Below the pieces are notes generated by a model, which worked only from the letters and a program-made list of their open reading frames with translations, was not told where the DNA came from and did not search any database. The position numbers were made by a program, and so were the translations under genes. Shown here piece by piece: positions 12,361-62,495 of a stretch of 64,000 bases of DNA. The stretch spans positions 64,001-128,000 of the IMG/VR virus record IMGVR_UViG_3300047558_000077; one strand, given 5' to 3'. The DNA is from a virus. Within the stretch, counting starts at the first letter, position 1, and each line of letters starts with the position of its first letter.

Positions 12361-12436
12361 GGCCGTGTAGGTTTCTGGGGAAACCACTTGTCTGTCTAAC
12401 AAGTTTAGGTGGGTTCGATCCCCATCACGGTCGCCA
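12361..12436 (+). tRNA. tRNA-Asp(GTC)
   Basis: CTTGT-ct GTC ta-ACAAG, CCA. Confidence 0.9.
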
Positions 12437-13171: not shown

Positions 13172-13252
13172 CTCCACGTATCCACCTTCGCTACGAACGA
13201 AGAGTAAGGTAACTGGATGCAAATGCAGGTTCGAATCCTGTCGTGGAGTCCA
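13172..13252 (+). tRNA. rearranged tRNA-Arg(ACG)-like RNA
   Basis: 7-bp acceptor, canonical T-arm, CCA; anticodon hairpin nested inside D-like stem. Confidence 0.65.
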
Positions 13253-13348
13253 GGTCGCTGGATTACTAATCGATGGTTCCTAGGCCTATCGAGGTGTGTA
13301 CCAGTAGTGGAAGCCCGTCACCACTATAAGAAAGCGTGGCTGCTATTC

Positions 13349-13423
13349 GCTGGTAGGTCGGCAAGATGTCGAGGCGCTCTCATAAGGCGTTTAAGGTTGG
13401 TTTAATTCCAACTATCAGCACCA
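13349..13423 (+). tRNA. tRNA-Met/Ile2(CAT)
   Basis: ct CAT aa loop, ACCA end. Confidence 0.8.
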
Positions 13424-13429
13424 GTTTAT

Positions 13430-13504
13430 TGCGGTCAGGTGGTCCGGAGACCATTCTTGTCTCATAAGCAAGAGAGCCATGTTCGACTCATGGGTCCGCA
13501 TCCA
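13430..13504 (+). tRNA. tRNA-Met(CAT)
   Basis: CTTGT-ct CAT aa-GCAAG, CCA. Confidence 0.8.
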
Positions 13505-13565: not shown

Positions 13566-13883
13566 ATGGTCGCAAGAAACAAATACGGTATAAAGAAAAC
13601 TAATGAAGAGGTATTTGTAGAAAACTCTACATATCCGAGACATAGGTTAAAAGAACGGATCATAAAAGAAGAAATGATCCCGTATGTGTGCCATGAATGT
13701 GGTATGGATGACAACTGGAACGGTAAGAAAATCGTTTTACAGTTAGACCATATAAATGGTGTGAATGATGATAATAGAATGAATAACCTTCAGTTCTTGT
13801 GTCCTAATTGTCATTCACAAACTCATACATACGCAGCAAAGAATAGACATAACTCTGCGAGAAAACCAAAGAGATATGTTTGA
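13566..13883 (+). CDS. HNH homing endonuclease inserted in tRNA array
   Basis: CxxC...LQLDHINGVNDDNRMNNLQFLCPNCHS; own late promoter at 13539. Confidence 0.9.
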   Translation: MVARNKYGIKKTNEEVFVENSTYPRHRLKERIIKEEMIPYVCHECGMDDNWNGKKIVLQLDHINGVNDDNRMNNLQFLCPNCHSQTHTYAAKNRHNSARKPKRYV

Positions 13884-15450: not shown

Positions 15451-16029
15451 ATGAGAAGACAATACTCTGGTAACATATTAAACTTATGTGATCGACTAAA
15501 AGTAAGAATATATGATTTAGTAGGTTATGATAGCAAAAACAATCCAGAAGGTTGTTTGACAGGATACACCACAGCACACTTCAATAATCCTGTAGGCCGT
15601 AGATTGGATAAGTTGCCGGAGTTTAAAGAACCTTTAGATTTTGTTTTGAATACAGCAAAAGATTATGCCGTTGAAAACGGCTTAGACAAAGATCATCTAA
15701 CGACTGTCATGTGTTGGGTAAATGTCTATCCTCCTGGAACATTCATTAGTGCCCATAAACATATAACATTCGATAATCTGTTTACGTCCGTATTTTACTT
15801 ACAGAGTAAAGAAGACTCTGGGCAATTATATGTTGCCGACGATCCTAATCCAAAGAATATAAAGCAAGGTGAAGTGTATATTTTTCCTTCCAATATAGAT
15901 CATTGGACAACACCAAATGAAAGTGTTCAGGATAGAATAGTTTTCGGATGTGACTTTGTTTACTATCATATAGACGACCAAACAGTGGATAGAATCCTAT
16001 CTAACTGGCTTGACCGAAAAAAGACTTGA
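15451..16029 (+). CDS. 2OG-Fe(II) oxygenase-like protein (TIGR02466-like)
   Basis: WVNVYPPG...HKH...SVFYL...IFPS..DH.T.PN....RI. Confidence 0.75.
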   Translation: MRRQYSGNILNLCDRLKVRIYDLVGYDSKNNPEGCLTGYTTAHFNNPVGRRLDKLPEFKEPLDFVLNTAKDYAVENGLDKDHLTTVMCWVNVYPPGTFISAHKHITFDNLFTSVFYLQSKEDSGQLYVADDPNPKNIKQGEVYIFPSNIDHWTTPNESVQDRIVFGCDFVYYHIDDQTVDRILSNWLDRKKT

Positions 16030-16054
16030 CATTCCGTTTCGGGTGTGCTATTAT
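16026..16054 (+). promoter_or_regulatory. sigma70-type promoter
   Basis: TTGACA-17-TATTAT. Confidence 0.65.
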
Positions 16055-16080
16055 TAGACATAATGAGAAAGGAAAACGGA

Positions 16081-16557
16081 ATGAATAAGGTTTGGATTTT
16101 TGATATTGACGGAACGCTTGCTAACGTCCATCATCGTTGGCATCATATCAACGGTGGTGGTAAAAAGAACTGGGACGCATTCTTTGCCGATCAAATCAAG
16201 GACGAACCTTATCAGCCAGTGATGGATATCCTTCATGCTCTTGTGTCACATTATGTAGACGGAAGAAATAAGGTAATCTTTGTTACTGCTCGGGATGAAC
16301 GATTTCGGGAAGTCAGTTTACAGTGGCTAAATCGTCATATCAAGTATAAGGTTAGTGACGAAGACCTGTATATGCGTCCTGCTGGTAATCGTGAAAACGA
16401 TGACCTTATCAAGGTGCGTATTATCAAGAATTGGTTACAGCGGCATCCTGCTTATGAAGTCGGTGCGATCTTCGAAGATCGGCATCGGATTATCGATGCG
16501 TTTCGTGCCGAAGGCTGGTATACTTTTGAGTGTAACCAGCAGCGTTTAGAGTTTTAG
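16081..16557 (+). CDS. HAD phosphatase (T4 PseT/PNK 3'-phosphatase-domain-like)
   Basis: FDIDGTLA, VTAR, LYMR, FEDR. Confidence 0.85.
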   Translation: MNKVWIFDIDGTLANVHHRWHHINGGGKKNWDAFFADQIKDEPYQPVMDILHALVSHYVDGRNKVIFVTARDERFREVSLQWLNRHIKYKVSDEDLYMRPAGNRENDDLIKVRIIKNWLQRHPAYEVGAIFEDRHRIIDAFRAEGWYTFECNQQRLEF

Positions 16558-16641: not shown

Positions 16642-16727
16642 GGGGGACTATTTGGCTAAGGACGCCAAGGGGTCTGTAAAACTCAAGCCTATGTGCTGGC
16701 CCGGATCGTTACCGGGGTCCCCTACCA
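16642..16727 (+). tRNA. tRNA-Tyr(GTA)
   Basis: ct GTA aa, long V-arm, ACCA. Confidence 0.85.
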
Positions 16728-17799: not shown

Positions 17800-17874
17800 G
17801 CTTCATTCGTCTACTGGCTAGGACACCCGCCTCTCAAGCGGGAAAAAGGAGATCGATACTCCTATGAAGCACCA
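17800..17874 (+). tRNA. tRNA-Glu(CTC)
   Basis: CCCGC-ct CTC aa-GCGGG, CCA. Confidence 0.88.
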
Positions 17875-17893
17875 AACACTAGAGAGTTATATC

Positions 17894-18502
17894 ATGGAAA
17901 TTATTAAAGACCTTCTCTCAAAAGAAAAGCAAAATGAAATTGAACATACTATGTTAAAAACTTCATTTCCGTGGTACTTCAATAGTGAAGCAACATATGA
18001 TATGTTCAATGATAATCGAACACTAAACACATCTTTCTTTGGTCATATGTTTTTCTATGGCGGTAAGATTGATTCGGAGTATTATTATCCGTTGATTTGT
18101 CAGCCGATCATCGAGGCTCTTGAACGTCACCAAGGTAGACGTTTTCAAAATCGTGTTTGGCGTATCAAAGCCAATCTCTACACGAAAGACGGATCATATC
18201 CAGAAGACTTTCATCATCCTCCACACATAGACAATTCAGAAGATAACTTCCGGGGAGAAACTTTTCTCTACTTTGTCAATGATGCTGATGGTGATACTTT
18301 TATGTTTAATGAGCATTACGACTATGTTCATAAGCGTTATGGTCCCGAAGGATTTAAAGGAAACTTTACAAATCAGCTAAGGATTCCGCCAGAAAAAGGT
18401 AAGTCAGTATTATTCCCACTGACACAATGTCATACATCATCTATCCCTAGAAAAGGTGGTCCACGCATCACATTAAACTTTGTGTTCGGTGAATATTTCT
18501 GA
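17894..18502 (+). CDS. 2OG-Fe(II) oxygenase, paralog of 913..1500
   Basis: PHID, CHTSS, RITLNF; long shared motifs with 913..1500. Confidence 0.75.
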   Translation: MEIIKDLLSKEKQNEIEHTMLKTSFPWYFNSEATYDMFNDNRTLNTSFFGHMFFYGGKIDSEYYYPLICQPIIEALERHQGRRFQNRVWRIKANLYTKDGSYPEDFHHPPHIDNSEDNFRGETFLYFVNDADGDTFMFNEHYDYVHKRYGPEGFKGNFTNQLRIPPEKGKSVLFPLTQCHTSSIPRKGGPRITLNFVFGEYF

Positions 18503-22580: not shown

Positions 22581-22994
22581 ATGAAAAATGTGAATAAGGA
22601 AATCCTCAAAACCCTGACAAAGGTGGCCGCTGCTAATCCGCATCCTGCGGAAAAGTTTGCGGCCGCTATTGTTTTTCGTAATCGTATTGTTTCCATCGGA
22701 ATGAATAGTATGAAGTCTCATCCGATGGCAGCGAAATATTCCAAAAATCAACACGCCATTTTCCTTCATAGTGAGGTAGCAGCAATCAAGAATGCTCTCC
22801 GTGAGGTTGAGGTTGATCATCTCACCAAATGCGAACTGTATATTGTGCGAGTAAAGAAAGAGCAACCGTTTGCCCGAAATGTTGTTTGGGGTCTGGCTAA
22901 ACCTTGTATCGGTTGTCAAAGAGCAATCGCCGAGTTTGGTCTGAAACGAGTAATCTATACCTGTGATGGTGGAGACTATGAGGTGATGGAATGA
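22581..22994 (+). CDS. zinc-dependent cytidine/deoxycytidylate deaminase-fold protein
   Basis: HSE...PCIGC. Confidence 0.8.
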   Translation: MKNVNKEILKTLTKVAAANPHPAEKFAAAIVFRNRIVSIGMNSMKSHPMAAKYSKNQHAIFLHSEVAAIKNALREVEVDHLTKCELYIVRVKKEQPFARNVVWGLAKPCIGCQRAIAEFGLKRVIYTCDGGDYEVME

Positions 22995-47048: not shown

Positions 47049-48419
47049 ATGTCTAATTGGAAATATGTCACCCGCACAGTTCAGGAATTTGTCAACGAGG
47101 CTCAACGTGATAACTGGAATGTTGATCCTGAGTGGCAGCGCCTTGACACAAATTTAAACCTTAATGCTAAAGGCTCGAAGCCCTCTAAGGCACAGAGCAT
47201 CATTGCTTCCATGTTTAATGGCCAAGATATTGGTGAAATTAAACTTTGTGACTATGAAGGTGTTAAGTCCTCAATTGATGGTGGTAATCGTAAGAGAGCC
47301 ATTCTAAATTTTTATAATAACAAGTTTGCCCTTCCCAAGGGTAGCAAGTATGCAGGCCTAAAGTATAAAGACCTTAGCGAAGATGCGAAAGAACTCTTCC
47401 TTAGCTATGTGATCCGTTTCATCGAATACGGTGAAATCACTACACAAGAAATTGGTGAAACTTTCCGTAACACCAACAATACAACTCCCGTCAATAAGCA
47501 GGAAATGCGTAACAGCGAAGGACAGAATCCAGTTGCGGTTCTCGTTCGTCGTACCACACGCAAGATTGATGAGGTTGGTAATATCCCTCACATCCTCTTT
47601 GATTGGAGAATTAACGCAAAGGGTGATGCGGAATATACTTATCTTACCTTCAATAACAAAGGCCTGCATCTGGATGAACAGACGGCTCGTTTGCTTTGCC
47701 GTGTTTTACAGGGTGAAAAGTCCATTGCCGTGAGCGATGACGACCTTGATAAAATGTATGCAGATTATGAGGCGTTTTTGACCGATGAGGAAAACCTCAA
47801 GAAGGCTAAGAAGAAGTTGTATGAAGTATTGGACTTTATTGTCAATATTGCCGATACAGCTAGAAAGTATAAGAATGGTCGTGGTCTTGCCCATAAGCAG
47901 TATGAAATGCTGGTTCGCCTGTATTTCTACCTTAAAGAACACCACAAGTCCTTTAAGGTTACCGATGCTAGTGAATTTTGGGTTGCGTTCACTACCGCTA
48001 TGGACTCGGTTCTTTCGTGTGACGATATCACATTTAAGGAGCGTAGCGGTAAGACTCGTGTCGTTGCAGAAGCCTTCGGTCAGTATCTTAAAAGCGACTT
48101 GAACGACCAGTGGAAGTATGATAAGTCCCTCGAACTCTTCCTGAATGAGTTTAATCTTGATAACTGCGGTCTAAAGTTGCTTGATCCTAAGCGTTGCTTT
48201 AGCCGTGATGAAATCGAGAGTGCCTTGATCAAGCAAGGTTACAAGGACTTTATTGATGGTAAGAAACTGACCATGAAAGATGCGGTTGGTGCCCATGTTA
48301 TTGCACATTCTAATGGTGGTAAGACGGAGACCGACAATCTAGTGGTCGTTTCTAAGGCTCATAACACGGCGATGGGTACCATGCCCGTTGATGTTTACAA
48401 AGCCTCTCTCGGGTATTGA
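47049..48419 (+). CDS. DUF262/GmrSD-like protein with C-terminal HNH-like domain
   Basis: PEWQR, IDGGNR, F...N...P, H.IAHS.GG.T...NL......HN; own promoter at 46961. Confidence 0.7.
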   Translation: MSNWKYVTRTVQEFVNEAQRDNWNVDPEWQRLDTNLNLNAKGSKPSKAQSIIASMFNGQDIGEIKLCDYEGVKSSIDGGNRKRAILNFYNNKFALPKGSKYAGLKYKDLSEDAKELFLSYVIRFIEYGEITTQEIGETFRNTNNTTPVNKQEMRNSEGQNPVAVLVRRTTRKIDEVGNIPHILFDWRINAKGDAEYTYLTFNNKGLHLDEQTARLLCRVLQGEKSIAVSDDDLDKMYADYEAFLTDEENLKKAKKKLYEVLDFIVNIADTARKYKNGRGLAHKQYEMLVRLYFYLKEHHKSFKVTDASEFWVAFTTAMDSVLSCDDITFKERSGKTRVVAEAFGQYLKSDLNDQWKYDKSLELFLNEFNLDNCGLKLLDPKRCFSRDEIESALIKQGYKDFIDGKKLTMKDAVGAHVIAHSNGGKTETDNLVVVSKAHNTAMGTMPVDVYKASLGY

Positions 48420-60488: not shown

Positions 60489-61955
60489 ATGATTATCACT
60501 CGTAACTGGATACGTGACGACATACTCATATACACCGAGAAAGCCACTGGCGGTCTTCGTGTGTATGGTAAGAAAGACATATGCGAGTTTATCAATTATT
60601 GGAAACTGAAACTACTATCACATAATGCAAAGCCTGGTGATAAATTAGGATTTACGTTTGAGAACACCGAGATTCATTCTTATGCTCTTATGTTTGCAGC
60701 ATTTGAACTTGGGTTACGTGTTGTGGTTTTACATCGACCAAGCACAGAGAAGGAATGTTTGGCACCAAAAAGCAATGCTCATTTACCTCTAGACTTCTAT
60801 GTCTATCTCACATCATACCTAAATCGTTCAACTACTGTCACGGGTGTCAATCATTATCGAAAGCATTCTAAAGTTTGCATTAGCTATGGTCCTATGGAAT
60901 GGACCGAGTTTAGTGAAGACTTTAGATCAAATGAAGAAACACCTATAACAGTCAAACCCGACGATGTTGCTTTTTGTTGTAACAGTAGCGGTACAACCGG
61001 AGATCCTAAACTCATATCATACACACACGAGTTTCTTTACAACCTATGCACACATAACTGGCAAGACTTAGGTTATAAAGACGATGATACCATTGTGCAT
61101 CTGTCTTCCCTAAATCACGGTGGAGTCATAACTTTACTATTACCGGCACTAAGAACTTGCAAGACACACTTCTTTTATAACTACATCTTTGCAGCATCAT
61201 ATGATCGTCTTCTATCATTCATAGATGTTTGTCTAGATTATAATGTGTCAAAAATATTCTTTGCAAACGGTGGGGAGCTGAATACGCTCATTGATCACTT
61301 AATAGAAACCGATAATAAACTATCCAATGTTAGTGCCTACATTCTTTCGTTTATCAGTCCTAGATGGTCAGATACTATTCGTGATCAAAGACTAAAGGAG
61401 ATTGTTAGCGTTTTTGGTTGTAGTGAGATATGTGGTCCTGTCTTTATGCCTAGACTAGACAATAGCAATGTTGATGGCTTTGATCCAAAGTTACTAGGCA
61501 AGCCAATGACAGGCTTCTATGAAACAAAGATCATTAATAACAGAATACACACGAAACTAAAAGACGGAGGAGAGTTTGTCTTTGATGATGTTGTAGAAGA
61601 TAGAGTAGAAGGCGCTTATTTCATATCAAAGAATAGACTACAGAAGATCAATGATGTGGATATCAATCCACTGGACATTATAGAGATAGTAGAAAGATAT
61701 GTATCACGGTATGAGTTTGAGTTATATGTGGACGAAATCTATAACGAGATATACATCATAACTTCCAATGCCAATCTTGATAGAGGGAAGATAAGACAAG
61801 ACATATCTGCATTCTATCTGGACAAGATAACTCTAACCGATATCATATACGAAAAGGAACTATATGATACTCGGATCACTCACAAAGCGGAAAGAGATAA
61901 ACTATCACACATAGTTGAAAGATTCCGCTTGACATTTCAGAATAACTCTGTATAA
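60489..61955 (+). CDS. AMP-binding (adenylate-forming, ANL superfamily) enzyme
   Basis: SSGTTGDPK P-loop, L.H.G, FGCSE. Confidence 0.75.
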   Translation: MIITRNWIRDDILIYTEKATGGLRVYGKKDICEFINYWKLKLLSHNAKPGDKLGFTFENTEIHSYALMFAAFELGLRVVVLHRPSTEKECLAPKSNAHLPLDFYVYLTSYLNRSTTVTGVNHYRKHSKVCISYGPMEWTEFSEDFRSNEETPITVKPDDVAFCCNSSGTTGDPKLISYTHEFLYNLCTHNWQDLGYKDDDTIVHLSSLNHGGVITLLLPALRTCKTHFFYNYIFAASYDRLLSFIDVCLDYNVSKIFFANGGELNTLIDHLIETDNKLSNVSAYILSFISPRWSDTIRDQRLKEIVSVFGCSEICGPVFMPRLDNSNVDGFDPKLLGKPMTGFYETKIINNRIHTKLKDGGEFVFDDVVEDRVEGAYFISKNRLQKINDVDINPLDIIEIVERYVSRYEFELYVDEIYNEIYIITSNANLDRGKIRQDISAFYLDKITLTDIIYEKELYDTRITHKAERDKLSHIVERFRLTFQNNSV

Positions 61956-61965
61956 TAAATACTAT

Positions 61966-62254
61966 GCCGAGGTCGTTGAGAGGAACGGCATAGACGTTTC
62001 GGACGGGAGTTCGACTCTCCCCACCTCCACCATAGGTACACATTTTGAGGTCTTGGTCGTTACCAGCATGGCAAAAACGGCGACAATGTGTATCTTTGAT
62101 GGGGGTGTAACGGGTATCGACGGGCGTAGTAAGGGTTCAAGGAGACCAAAGGCAAATTGCAGGTGCAGCAAACGACAATGTACCATTTGATTACGCTCTA
62201 GCAGCATAATCATTGGGGTGGCGACTTCCCTAGAAACAGAAAAGTCGCATTTTC
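61966..62254 (+). ncRNA. ssrA: circularly permuted two-piece tmRNA gene
   Basis: acceptor piece with T-arm ending CTCCACCA (62032) precedes GGGGGTG...ATCGAC 5' piece (62101); G3-U70; tag (A)ANDNVPFDYALAA* at 62165-62209; outer ends approximate. Confidence 0.9.
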
Positions 62255-62267
62255 AAAAAGGATCTAT

Positions 62268-62495
62268 GTGATGACACCGGATGATATTCAAAAGTTTAGT
62301 ATGGAGATCGAGGAACTGGTCTATATGAAGGACATTCCTTATATTGATGCTGTTGTGGAATACTGTGAGATGACCGGGTTTGAAATAGAAACTGCGGCCA
62401 AATTAGTCTCCGGCGTTCTCAAATCTAAAATCAAACTCGAAGCAGAAAACCTCCACTACCTCAAAAAGTCAAACACCTCACAACTTCCTCTCTAA
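62268..62495 (+). CDS. 33: late-transcription coactivator (gp33)
   Basis: F...IE......YIDAV..YCE...EIE...KL....LK.KI..EA..L..L. Confidence 0.85.
   Translation: MMTPDDIQKFSMEIEELVYMKDIPYIDAVVEYCEMTGFEIETAAKLVSGVLKSKIKLEAENLHYLKKSNTSQLPL

What the first reader, a model, noticed from the sequence alone, without database searches (positions are those of the whole stretch)
13172..13252. Topologically rearranged tRNA-Arg(ACG): anticodon arm nested inside the D-stem
Seen: acceptor CTCCACG/CGTGGAG, T-arm GCAGG-TTCGAAT-CCTGT and CCA are normal. The interior reads TATCCA - [CTTCG-CT ACG AA-CGAAG] - AGTAAGGTAAC (D-loop-like, with GG) - TGGATG, so the anticodon hairpin comes before the D-loop and is enclosed by the D-like stem. 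Every element is intact, which argues against decay. No other CGN-reading tRNA is in the window although CGT is a common Arg codon here. Inference: alternative tRNA architecture or decoy for anticodon nucleases/TadA/ArgRS.
Basis: seen in the sequence. Interest (0 to 1): 0.8.

Follow-up and report, generated by a model that had tools for sequence, protein, structure and literature searches.

The report
Rewired, non-cloverleaf phage arginine tRNA
This 81-base phage gene is very probably a working arginine tRNA (anticodon ACG) with every standard tRNA part, but its D-arm is threaded in a different order around the anticodon arm; hundreds of phages share this layout, gene finders miss it, and I found no paper describing it.

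Summary
It is not a one-off. Partial scans of IMG/VR gave 197 distinct relatives, all in phage tRNA arrays. Cultured phages also carry it unannotated (Rhizobium RHph_I1_18, Xanthomonas XacN1, Microbacterium Zooman, Streptomyces Mildred21). The acceptor, anticodon and T stems covary strongly.

The strand after U8-A9 (UCCA) pairs with the first G-run 3' of the anticodon arm. Canonical tertiary pairs covary: 15-48 (A-U 177, G-C 14) and 19-56 (A-U only where the T-loop has U56). In effect nucleotides 10-44 are circularly permuted inside the tRNA.

Anticodons cover all Arg isoacceptors plus Ile, so it is not an ACG/TadA decoy. A20, the main ArgRS determinant, is present in 182/183 Arg members and 3/14 Ile members. 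A canonical tRNA with the same anticodon accompanies only 6% of members. This phage has only tRNA-Arg(UCU) besides it, and CGU and AGA are its main Arg codons.

Expression and charging are untested. Earlier agents of this scan reached the same reading on other genomes.

The parts
13172..13178 (+). Acceptor stem, 5' strand (nt 1-7, CTCCACG)
   Evidence: Pairs with 13242-13248. All 7 pairs show changes on both sides in relatives, with 99.8-100% of cells paired.
13179..13180 (+). U8 A9 connector
   Evidence: TA in 71 of 71 members found by a parse that did not require it. U8 with A14: UA in 63 of 63.
13181..13184 (+). TCCA: 'down' strand of the D-like stem, topological equivalent of canonical nt 22-25
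   Evidence: Pairs with the G-run at 13208-13210. The family shows C-G in 90 type A/B members against G-C in 71 type C members at the 25-10 position. Variants are also compensatory: TGCC with AAGCTAA, TCTC with AAGAGTAA, TCCC with AAGGGTAA. In this subgroup A13184 pairs with T13205 (A-T in 11 of 12).
13185..13185 (+). C26
   Evidence: Pairs with G13204. Family counts: C-G 68, G-C 8, U.G 3, A-U 1, other 9. All 8 members with G26 have C at the partner.
13186..13202 (+). Anticodon arm: stem CTTCG/CGAAG and loop CTACGAA, anticodon ACG at 13193-13195
   Evidence: Five pairs, all with changes on both sides. The close relative L253 is identical over the rest of the tRNA but has two compensatory stem changes and a loop change at position 32 (C to A). 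From my own knowledge, the loop matches that of E. coli tRNA-Arg(ICG).
13203..13207 (+). AGTAA: A bulge, G44 (pairs with C26), T (pairs with A13184), AA bulge
13208..13210 (+). GGT: 'up' strand of the D-like stem, equivalent of canonical nt 10-12
   Evidence: The exact register in this subgroup is inferred.
13211..13217 (+). AACTGGA: D-loop, A14 A15 C16 U17 G18 G19 A20
   Evidence: A14 is present in 197 of 197 members. The 15-48 pair is A-U 177, G-C 14, G.G 5, G.U 1. G19-C56 occurs in 193; A19-U56 occurs in exactly the 3 members with U56; the one A18 member has G55. A20 is present in 182 of 183 Arg members and 3 of 14 Ile members.
13218..13224 (+). TGCAAAT: connector to the T arm (variable-region equivalent), U48 at 13224
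   Evidence: The last nucleotide covaries with nt 15. Some relatives carry an extra hairpin here.
13225..13241 (+). T arm: GCAGG, TTCGAAT, CCTGT
   Evidence: Four of five pairs change on both sides, with 99.6-100% of cells paired.
13242..13252 (+). Acceptor 3' strand CGTGGAG, discriminator U73, encoded CCA
   Evidence: CCA is encoded in 150 of 197 members.

Best explanation
It is a functional elongator tRNA-Arg(ACG) with a non-cloverleaf secondary structure. The acceptor stem, T arm, anticodon arm and D-loop are standard. The difference is that the D hairpin is opened between nt 21 and 22, and the break between nt 44 and nt 10 is sealed. The chain therefore runs 8-9, then the 22-25 strand, 26, the anticodon arm, 44, the 10-12 strand, the D-loop (14-20), a short connector, and the T arm. 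The D stem and anticodon stem form one continuous hairpin of about 10 layers, the same length as in a normal tRNA. The D-loop still docks on the T-loop, so the L shape can be kept with three backbone connections re-routed. This is an internal circular permutation of nt 10-44. Shown: family conservation, helix and tertiary covariation, identity nucleotides, and complementary anticodon distribution. Inferred: it is transcribed with the tRNA array and processed by RNase P and 3' trimming. A34 is deaminated to inosine by the host TadA, which needs only the anticodon arm. The host ArgRS charges it through A20, C35 and G36, since the phage has no ArgRS. It then reads CGU/CGC/CGA, CGU being one of the phage's two main Arg codons.
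For: Distribution: 197 distinct members in phage tRNA arrays; unannotated copies in cultured phages of Rhizobium, Xanthomonas, Stenotrophomonas, Microbacterium and Streptomyces. Stems: mutual information is highest for acceptor, anticodon and T-stem pairs; 457 cells changed on both sides against 108 in shuffles, 0 of 500 shuffles as high; in the D-like stem, 25-10 is C-G in types A/B and G-C in type C, and the next pair in type C is AU 18, GC 14, UA 5, UG 2, CG 1. Tertiary pairs: 15-48 is A-U 177 and G-C 14; A19 occurs only with U56. Identity: A20 in 182/183 Arg against 3/14 Ile members, Fisher p about 1e-14; A20 is the main E. coli ArgRS determinant (PMC9976931); discriminator A in 14/14 Ile members. 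Anticodon slots: only 15 of 242 members share a locus with a canonical tRNA of the same anticodon, while duplication among canonical tRNAs is 14-17%; RHph_I1_18 has no canonical Arg tRNA but has rewired ACG and UCU; Mildred21 has canonical CCU plus rewired ACG, UCG and UCU; in this genome the only canonical Arg tRNA is UCU, CGT is 16.4 and AGA 16.9 per 1000 codons, and the other Arg codons are 4.5 or less. Plausibility: E. coli's translation machinery accepts even a D-arm-less tRNA (PMC11551756).
Against: There is no RNA evidence: no RNA run holds this DNA, so expression, end processing, I34 and charging are all untested. The three-dimensional argument is reasoning from known tRNA geometry, not a model or a structure. 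The register of the D-like stem differs between subtypes, and most members have one or two mismatches in it. This member has U73, whereas Arg identity usually involves A/G73. Zooman and a few loci carry a canonical tRNA of the same anticodon as well. Scan patterns were seeded from Arg members, so the Arg/Ile restriction may be partly sampling bias.
Confidence: 0.75

Rival explanations
1. It is a functional tRNA, but folded. UCCA pairs with UGGA and encloses both the anticodon hairpin and an AGUAAGGUAAC loop whose GG contacts the T-loop.
For: In the window's sequence ATCCA/TGGAT is a perfect 5-bp helix. Constrained folding favours it by 1.2 kcal/mol (-21.5 against -20.3). In type C the equivalent helix is 92% pairable.
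Against: No pair of this helix changes on both sides. UGGA stays invariant while the 5' strand changes to UGCC, UCUC or RCCG, and the first G-run changes with it, to GC, GAG or CG. The second G of UGGA becomes A only in the three members whose T-loop has U56. The nucleotide two places before this GG motif pairs with nt 48 in Levitt fashion. The A after GG tracks Arg identity.
Confidence: 0.1
2. It is a decoy or sponge rather than a decoder: a stable tRNA-shaped scaffold that presents an Arg anticodon loop to titrate a host anticodon nuclease, TadA or ArgRS.
For: The unusual architecture could keep it off the ribosome. Phage tRNAs are known to counter tRNA-targeting defences (PMC10264068, PMC11555353, listed). 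A PNKP-type phosphatase gene lies inside this tRNA array.
Against: Nine different anticodons occur on the same scaffold, and up to three different ones in a single phage. Members fill anticodon slots left empty by canonical tRNAs. The full set of elbow contacts and the A20/A73 charging determinants are maintained; a loop-presenting decoy would not need them. RHph_I1_18 would otherwise have no Arg tRNA among 24 tRNAs.
Confidence: 0.08
3. It is charged with arginine but used outside ribosomal decoding, for example as an aminoacyl donor for a phage transferase.
For: Charging determinants are conserved, and the topology is unlike that of any known ribosomal substrate.
Against: The anticodon would not need to diversify over all Arg codon families and Ile, nor to complement the canonical set. 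No conserved partner gene was looked for or seen. The arm length of about 10 layers matches the ribosomal geometry.
Confidence: 0.04
4. It is a decaying tRNA pseudogene or a chance arrangement.
For: ARAGORN and a routine Rfam search do not call it.
Against: There are 197 distinct sequences with compensatory changes in every helix. The model scores 92.5 bits here, against 35 or less for real canonical tRNAs in this genome. L253 is identical across the tRNA except for two compensatory stem changes and one loop change in the anticodon arm, in otherwise unrelated flanks.
Confidence: 0.01

Closest known systems
Canonical bacterial and phage tRNA-Arg(ACG/ICG), class I cloverleaf (Rfam RF00005)
   Same: 7-bp acceptor stem. 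5-bp T stem with TTCGAAT loop. 5-bp anticodon stem with loop CUACGAA. U8, A14, R15-Y48, G18, G19, A20, and encoded CCA. Position inside a phage tRNA array.
   Different: There is no D hairpin between nt 9 and nt 26. One D-stem strand lies 5' of the anticodon arm, and the other strand plus the D-loop lie 3' of it. The 26-44 pair is Watson-Crick. The variable loop is replaced by a connector from the D-loop to the T stem.
D-arm-less tRNAs: metazoan mitochondrial tRNA-Ser(AGY), and the synthetic mini HisT used by evolved E. coli (PMC11551756)
   Same: No D hairpin at the usual place. Shows that translation can use non-cloverleaf adaptors.
   Different: Those lack the D-loop and the D/T-loop elbow and adopt a Y or boomerang shape. 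This family keeps a D stem, a full D-loop and the elbow contacts, as covariation of 15-48 and 19-56 shows. The parts are re-ordered, not lost.
Circularly permuted tRNA genes of Cyanidioschyzon merolae and some algae and archaea (PMC3978253)
   Same: The order of tRNA segments in the gene differs from the textbook order. A duplication-and-deletion origin is plausible.
   Different: There the whole gene is permuted (3' half before 5' half), and processing through a circular intermediate restores a normal cloverleaf. Here the acceptor ends are in normal order, only nt 10-44 are permuted, and no known bacterial processing route that I know of would restore the canonical order. The mature RNA itself would be permuted.
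tRNA-Sec and allo-tRNAs with 8/4 or 9/3 acceptor/T branches (PMC5389517, PMC7609411)
   Same: Naturally occurring non-standard tRNAs found by metagenome mining, some of them in phages.
   Different: Those change helix lengths within the cloverleaf topology. This family changes the connectivity.
Phage tRNAs that evade tRNA-targeting defences (T5 tRNAs, PMC10264068; retron and PARIS escape, PMC11555353)
   Same: Phage-encoded tRNAs in large arrays. A possible reason for an unusual tRNA.
   Different: Those are cloverleaf tRNAs with anticodon-loop substitutions. No link between the rewired core and any defence system has been tested.

Membership tests
tRNA (elongator, L-shaped) | 7-bp acceptor stem closed by the 5' and 3' ends, with discriminator and CCA | tested here: met
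   All 7 pairs covary. CCA is encoded.
tRNA (elongator, L-shaped) | T arm: 5-bp stem and 7-nt loop T54 T55 C56 R57 A58 | tested here: met
   GCAGG-TTCGAAT-CCTGT, with covariation.
tRNA (elongator, L-shaped) | Anticodon arm: 5-bp stem and 7-nt loop with U33 and purine 37 | tested here: met
   CTTCG-CTACGAA-CGAAG. All 5 pairs covary.
tRNA (elongator, L-shaped) | D hairpin (stem plus loop) located between nt 9 and nt 26: the cloverleaf topology | tested here: not met
   Only 5 nt lie between A9 and the anticodon stem. The Rfam alignment deletes the D arm.
tRNA (elongator, L-shaped) | Core tertiary pairs U8-A14, R15-Y48, G18-psi55 and G19-C56 | tested here: met
   By sequence and covariation only. 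U8/A14 are invariant; 15-48 is A-U 177 and G-C 14; A19 occurs only with U56. No structural experiment.
tRNA (elongator, L-shaped) | Reaches the Rfam RF00005 gathering score | tested here: inconclusive
   30.5 bits against 29 in a 126-base search. No hit in the 10-kb search. ARAGORN finds 7 of 197 members, 2 with the right anticodon.
tRNA (elongator, L-shaped) | Expressed, end-processed, aminoacylated and used by the ribosome | not testable with these tools
   No RNA run holds the stretch.
Bacterial arginine identity (ArgRS substrate) | A20 in the D-loop | tested here: met
   A13217 follows G18 G19. A20 is present in 182 of 183 Arg members and 3 of 14 Ile members. Its role is taken from PMC9976931.
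Bacterial arginine identity (ArgRS substrate) | C35 and G36 or U36 | tested here: met
   The anticodon is ACG.
Bacterial arginine identity (ArgRS substrate) | Discriminator A73 or G73 (minor element) | tested here: not met
   The window has U73. Among Arg members G is 80, U 60 and A 43.
D-arm-less (mitochondrial-type) tRNA | Loss of the D stem and D-loop and of the D/T-loop interaction | tested here: not met
   The D-loop motif is present and covaries with the T-loop and nt 48.
Circularly permuted tRNA gene (Cyanidioschyzon type) | The 3' half is encoded upstream of the 5' half, so the acceptor ends are internal to the gene | tested here: not met
   The acceptor 5' strand is first and the 3' strand plus CCA is last.
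Anticodon-loop decoy specific for tRNA-Arg(ACG) enzymes such as TadA | The architecture is tied to the ACG loop | tested here: not met
   The same scaffold carries UCG, GCG, CCG, UCU, CCU, GAU, UAU and CAU.

The most novel reading that the evidence does not exclude
The rewired core is an anti-defence adaptation. Re-threading the D arm leaves ArgRS/IleRS, EF-Tu and the ribosome satisfied, but makes these Arg and Ile tRNAs invisible or resistant to host tRNA-targeting immune nucleases, or to tRNA quality control, that read the normal D-arm/anticodon-arm connectivity. On this reading phages carry a structurally orthogonal tRNA class inside bacterial cells.
Probability: 0.25. Interest if true: 0.95.

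Novelty: new variant of a known kind. Interest (0 to 1): 0.85.

Why it matters
A 2024 paper states that all known bacterial tRNAs are cloverleaves and that arm size is the only structural diversity in cytosolic tRNAs (PMC11551756). If these genes work, several things follow.
- Bacterial translation naturally uses an adaptor whose D/anticodon domain is circularly permuted.
- The L shape would then be specified by tertiary contacts rather than by chain connectivity.
- Phage tRNA inventories and codon-usage studies would be systematically missing Arg and some Ile tRNAs. RHph_I1_18 appears to have no Arg tRNA at all unless these are counted.
- The scaffold could explain how phages keep Arg decoding under tRNA-directed defence.
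- It offers a ready-made, possibly orthogonal, tRNA framework for genetic-code engineering.
- It is directly testable, because cultured phages with laboratory hosts carry it.

Tried and rejected
- Megablast of 3 kb against the phage collection found only a canonical tRNA-Lys match.
- Rfam at permissive thresholds returned nothing but the borderline tRNA hit.
- An unconstrained MFE fold mixes the two candidate helices and breaks the anticodon stem, so it is uninformative.
- The first anticodon-agnostic pattern returned mostly chance hits, about 10 true members in 120 rows.
Only 4 of 120 rows were true members (in Hoeflea, Rhizobium rosettiformans and Bacteroidetes assemblies and one locus, L493, whose record title I did not read), all in short stretches also carrying 2 to 20 other tRNA genes, phage-like for the three large ones. 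I cannot say whether free-living cells use this tRNA.
- No RNA holder was listed for the stretch. The A34-to-I and end-mapping tests could not be done, and read laying was not used.
- Deaminase at 22581: Pfam places it in the dCMP/cytidine deaminase family and NCBIfam gives no match. It cannot be called TadA-like.
- The phage has no ArgRS.
- I considered pairing nt 11 with W of AAGGTWA, which correlate perfectly. It is better explained by a one-nucleotide register difference between subtypes A and B once the D-loops are aligned.
- Five literature searches found no description of this architecture. The library lacks most subscription journals.
- No RNA 3D modelling tool was available.

Full report
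**What is there.** The window is part of a 172,364-bp virus record, about 41% G+C. It has a tRNA array at 11.1-19.8 kb and a two-piece tmRNA. There is a 7-bp acceptor stem, a textbook T arm, discriminator U and CCA. The interior reads UA-UCCA-C-[CUUCG-CUACGAA-CGAAG]-AGUAAGGUAAC-UGGA-UGCAAAU. ARAGORN does not report it. The Rfam tRNA model misses it in a 10-kb search. In a 126-base search it reaches 30.5 bits against a threshold of 29, by deleting the D arm and inserting 19 nt into the variable region.

**It is a large family.** A sensitive BLAST search found unannotated relatives inside the tRNA arrays of several cultured phages:
- Rhizobium phage RHph_I1_18
- Xanthomonas phages XacN1 and Xoo-sp13
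- Stenotrophomonas phages CM1 and RAS14
- Microbacterium phage Zooman
- Streptomyces phage Mildred21

After structural parsing they gave 197 distinct members. A covariance model separates members (64-95 bits) from canonical tRNAs (about 53 bits or less). It finds a single member in this genome, at 92.5 bits. ARAGORN recognises 7 of the 197, and only 2 with the right anticodon. In a truncated scan of bacterial and archaeal assemblies, 4 of 120 rows were true members. All four lay in short stretches that also carried other tRNA genes: 10 to 20 in three of them, phage-like arrays, and only 2 on the short 3.1-kb Bacteroidetes contig.

**Which helices are real.** Mutual information is highest for the acceptor, anticodon and T-stem pairs. 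On 89 sequences, 457 cells changed on both sides against 108 expected, and 0 of 500 shuffles were as high.

The family has three core subtypes:
- A: UCCC...GGU|AACUGGA (the window belongs here)
- B: UACC...GGUU|AAYUGGA
- C: RCCGNN...NCGU|ARNUGGAG

Whenever the 5' strand changes, the first G-run after the anticodon arm changes with it:
- UGCC goes with AAGCUAA (three loci).
- UCUC goes with AAGAGUAA.
- UCCC goes with AAGGGUAA.
- CCG goes with CG in type C.

At the position equivalent to 25-10 the pair is C-G in 90 type A/B members and G-C in 71 type C members. In a MAFFT alignment of 63 type C sequences the adjacent pair reads AU 18, GC 14, UA 5, UG 2, CG 1. The nucleotide between this strand and the anticodon stem pairs with the second nucleotide after the stem: C-G 68, G-C 8, U.G 3, A-U 1. 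All 8 members with G there have C at the partner.

**UGGA is the D-loop.** With the D-loops of the three subtypes aligned, every member reads A14 R15 (Y16) N17 G18 G19 N20.
- The Levitt pair 15-48 is A-U in 177 members, G-C in 14, G.G in 5 and G.U in 1. The tool count on type C is AU 49, GC 9.
- G19-C56 is G-C in 193 members.
- The only three members with A19 are the only three with U56 in the T-loop. This represents two independent lineages.
- The one member with A18 has G55.
- U8 and A14 are invariant.

So the elbow and core contacts of a normal tRNA are maintained.

**The resulting architecture.** The chain order is 8-9 | 22-25 | 26 | 27-43 | 44 | 10-12(13) | 14-20 | connector ending in 48 | T arm. 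Compared with a cloverleaf, the D hairpin is opened between 21 and 22. The discontinuity between 44 and 10, which in a normal tRNA lies within the coaxial D/anticodon stack, is sealed. The D stem and anticodon stem become one hairpin of about 10 layers (3-4 + 1 + 5), the same as 4 + 1 + 5 in a canonical tRNA. In other words, nt 10-44 are circularly permuted inside the molecule.

From established tRNA geometry, nt 9 lies next to 22-23, nt 44-45 next to nt 10, and nt 21 next to 46-48. All three re-routed connections are therefore short. This step is inference; no 3D tool was available. A partial tandem duplication followed by deletions would produce such a permutation, which is also inference.

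Nearest-neighbour energies do not decide between the two helices. The case therefore rests on covariation.

**It behaves like a decoder, not a decoy.** Anticodons on this scaffold:

| Amino acid | Anticodon | Members |
|---|---|---|
| Arg | ACG | 104 |
| Arg | UCU | 54 |
| Arg | UCG | 16 |
| Arg | CCU | 6 |
| Arg | GCG | 2 |
| Arg | CCG | 1 |
| Ile | GAU | 8 |
| Ile | UAU | 4 |
| Ile or Met | CAU | 1 |

The nucleotide after G19 is A in 182 of 183 Arg members but U in 10 of 14 Ile members, with A in 3 (Fisher p about 1e-14). A20 is the main determinant for E. coli ArgRS (PMC9976931). Ile members occur in several core subtypes, and all 14 have discriminator A.

In 200 distinct loci, only 15 of 242 members (6%) coexist with a canonical tRNA of the same anticodon. 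Among canonical tRNAs in the same loci, 14-17% have a same-anticodon duplicate. Five loci carry three rewired tRNAs; in four of them all three anticodons differ (L393 has GAU twice plus ACG).

Whole-genome checks gave these Arg tRNA sets:

| Phage | Canonical tRNAs (all) | Canonical Arg | Rewired Arg |
|---|---|---|---|
| RHph_I1_18 | 24 | none | ACG, UCU |
| Mildred21 | 40 | CCU | ACG, UCG, UCU |
| Zooman | 41 | ACG, CCG, CCU | ACG, UCU |
| This phage | 24 | UCU | ACG |

Mildred21 also carries a rewired Ile GAU. In this phage, CGU (16.4 per 1000) and AGA (16.9 per 1000) are the two dominant Arg codons. The phage encodes no ArgRS, so the host enzyme would have to charge it.

**What is not shown.** No RNA run holds this DNA. 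Expression, processing, inosine formation and charging are unverified. The register of the D-like stem varies between subtypes and includes mismatches. This member has U73. The Arg/Ile restriction may partly reflect how the scans were seeded. The reason for the rewiring is unknown. Escape from tRNA-directed host defences is attractive, given phage tRNA counter-defence (PMC10264068, PMC11555353) and a PNKP-type phosphatase gene inside this array, but it is untested.

**Comparison and novelty.** It works like a canonical tRNA-Arg(ICG) but fails the defining cloverleaf topology.
- It is not a D-arm-less tRNA, because the D stem, D-loop and elbow are present.
- It is not a permuted tRNA gene of the algal type, because the ends are in normal order and nothing known to me would restore the canonical order.
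- It is not a helix-length variant such as tRNA-Sec or the allo-tRNAs.

Five full-text searches found no description. A 2024 paper states that all known bacterial tRNAs are cloverleaves. Earlier agents of this scan reported the same family on other genomes. I reached the same fold from my own covariation analysis. As far as their short summaries show, this report adds:
- the Ile members
- the A20 and discriminator identity coupling
- the 15-48 and 19-56 tertiary covariation
- the three subtypes
- the description as an internal circular permutation

**Verdict.** This is a new variant of a known kind, of high interest.

Noticed in passing
window 13349-13423 (+): A tRNA with anticodon CAU that ARAGORN misses; Rfam gives only a 20.5-bit tRNA-Sec hit. 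The acceptor is GCTGGTA/TATCAGC, nt 8-9 are GG, the D-loop is CAAGATG and the T-loop is TTTAATT. It therefore has U56 with an A at the G19 position, the same compensatory swap seen in the rewired family. In relatives (L114, L008, L022 and others) it directly follows the rewired tRNA-Arg.
   Followed up: partly
window 13253-13344 (+): A 92-nt insertion directly after the CCA of the rewired tRNA. It is absent from the otherwise near-identical relative L114, where the CAU tRNA follows after 4 nt. No Rfam match. Another first-stage note (e1-5728692) flagged GC-rich structured stretches on both sides of the tRNA.
   Followed up: partly
window 12361-12433 (+): A tRNA-Asp(GUC) found by Rfam (45.5 bits) but not by ARAGORN. 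Conversely, ARAGORN's tRNA-Met (13430-13504) and tRNA-Tyr (16642-16727) are absent from the Rfam list. The array holds at least 27 tRNA genes, not 24.
   Followed up: partly
window 16045-16557 (+), also 13566-13883, 15451-16029, 17864-18502: Protein genes interleaved with the tRNA array: a PNKP-type HAD phosphatase domain protein (a possible RNA-end healing enzyme), an HNH endonuclease and two 2OG-Fe(II) oxygenases.
   Followed up: no
window 61940-62300 (+): A two-piece (permuted) tmRNA with tag AANDNVPFDYALAA. From my own knowledge this resembles alphaproteobacterial tags. Together with the closest cultured relative being a Rhizobium phage, it hints at an alphaproteobacterial host.
   Followed up: no
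L253:3028-3108 (-) compared with window 13172-13252: The tRNA is identical to the window's except for two compensatory base-pair changes in the anticodon stem and C32 to A. The flanks are unrelated. This suggests either exchange of the gene between phages or very strong constraint.
   Followed up: no
AP018399.1 (XacN1) 47790-47869 and 366585-366664: The rewired tRNA-Arg(ACG) lies in both long terminal repeats of XacN1. It is not among the 56 tRNA genes reported for that phage (PMC5852040 abstract).
   Followed up: no
window 22581-22994 (+): A 137-aa zinc deaminase of the dCMP/cytidine deaminase family with no NCBIfam match. Whether it acts on nucleotides or on tRNA A34 is open.
   Followed up: partly
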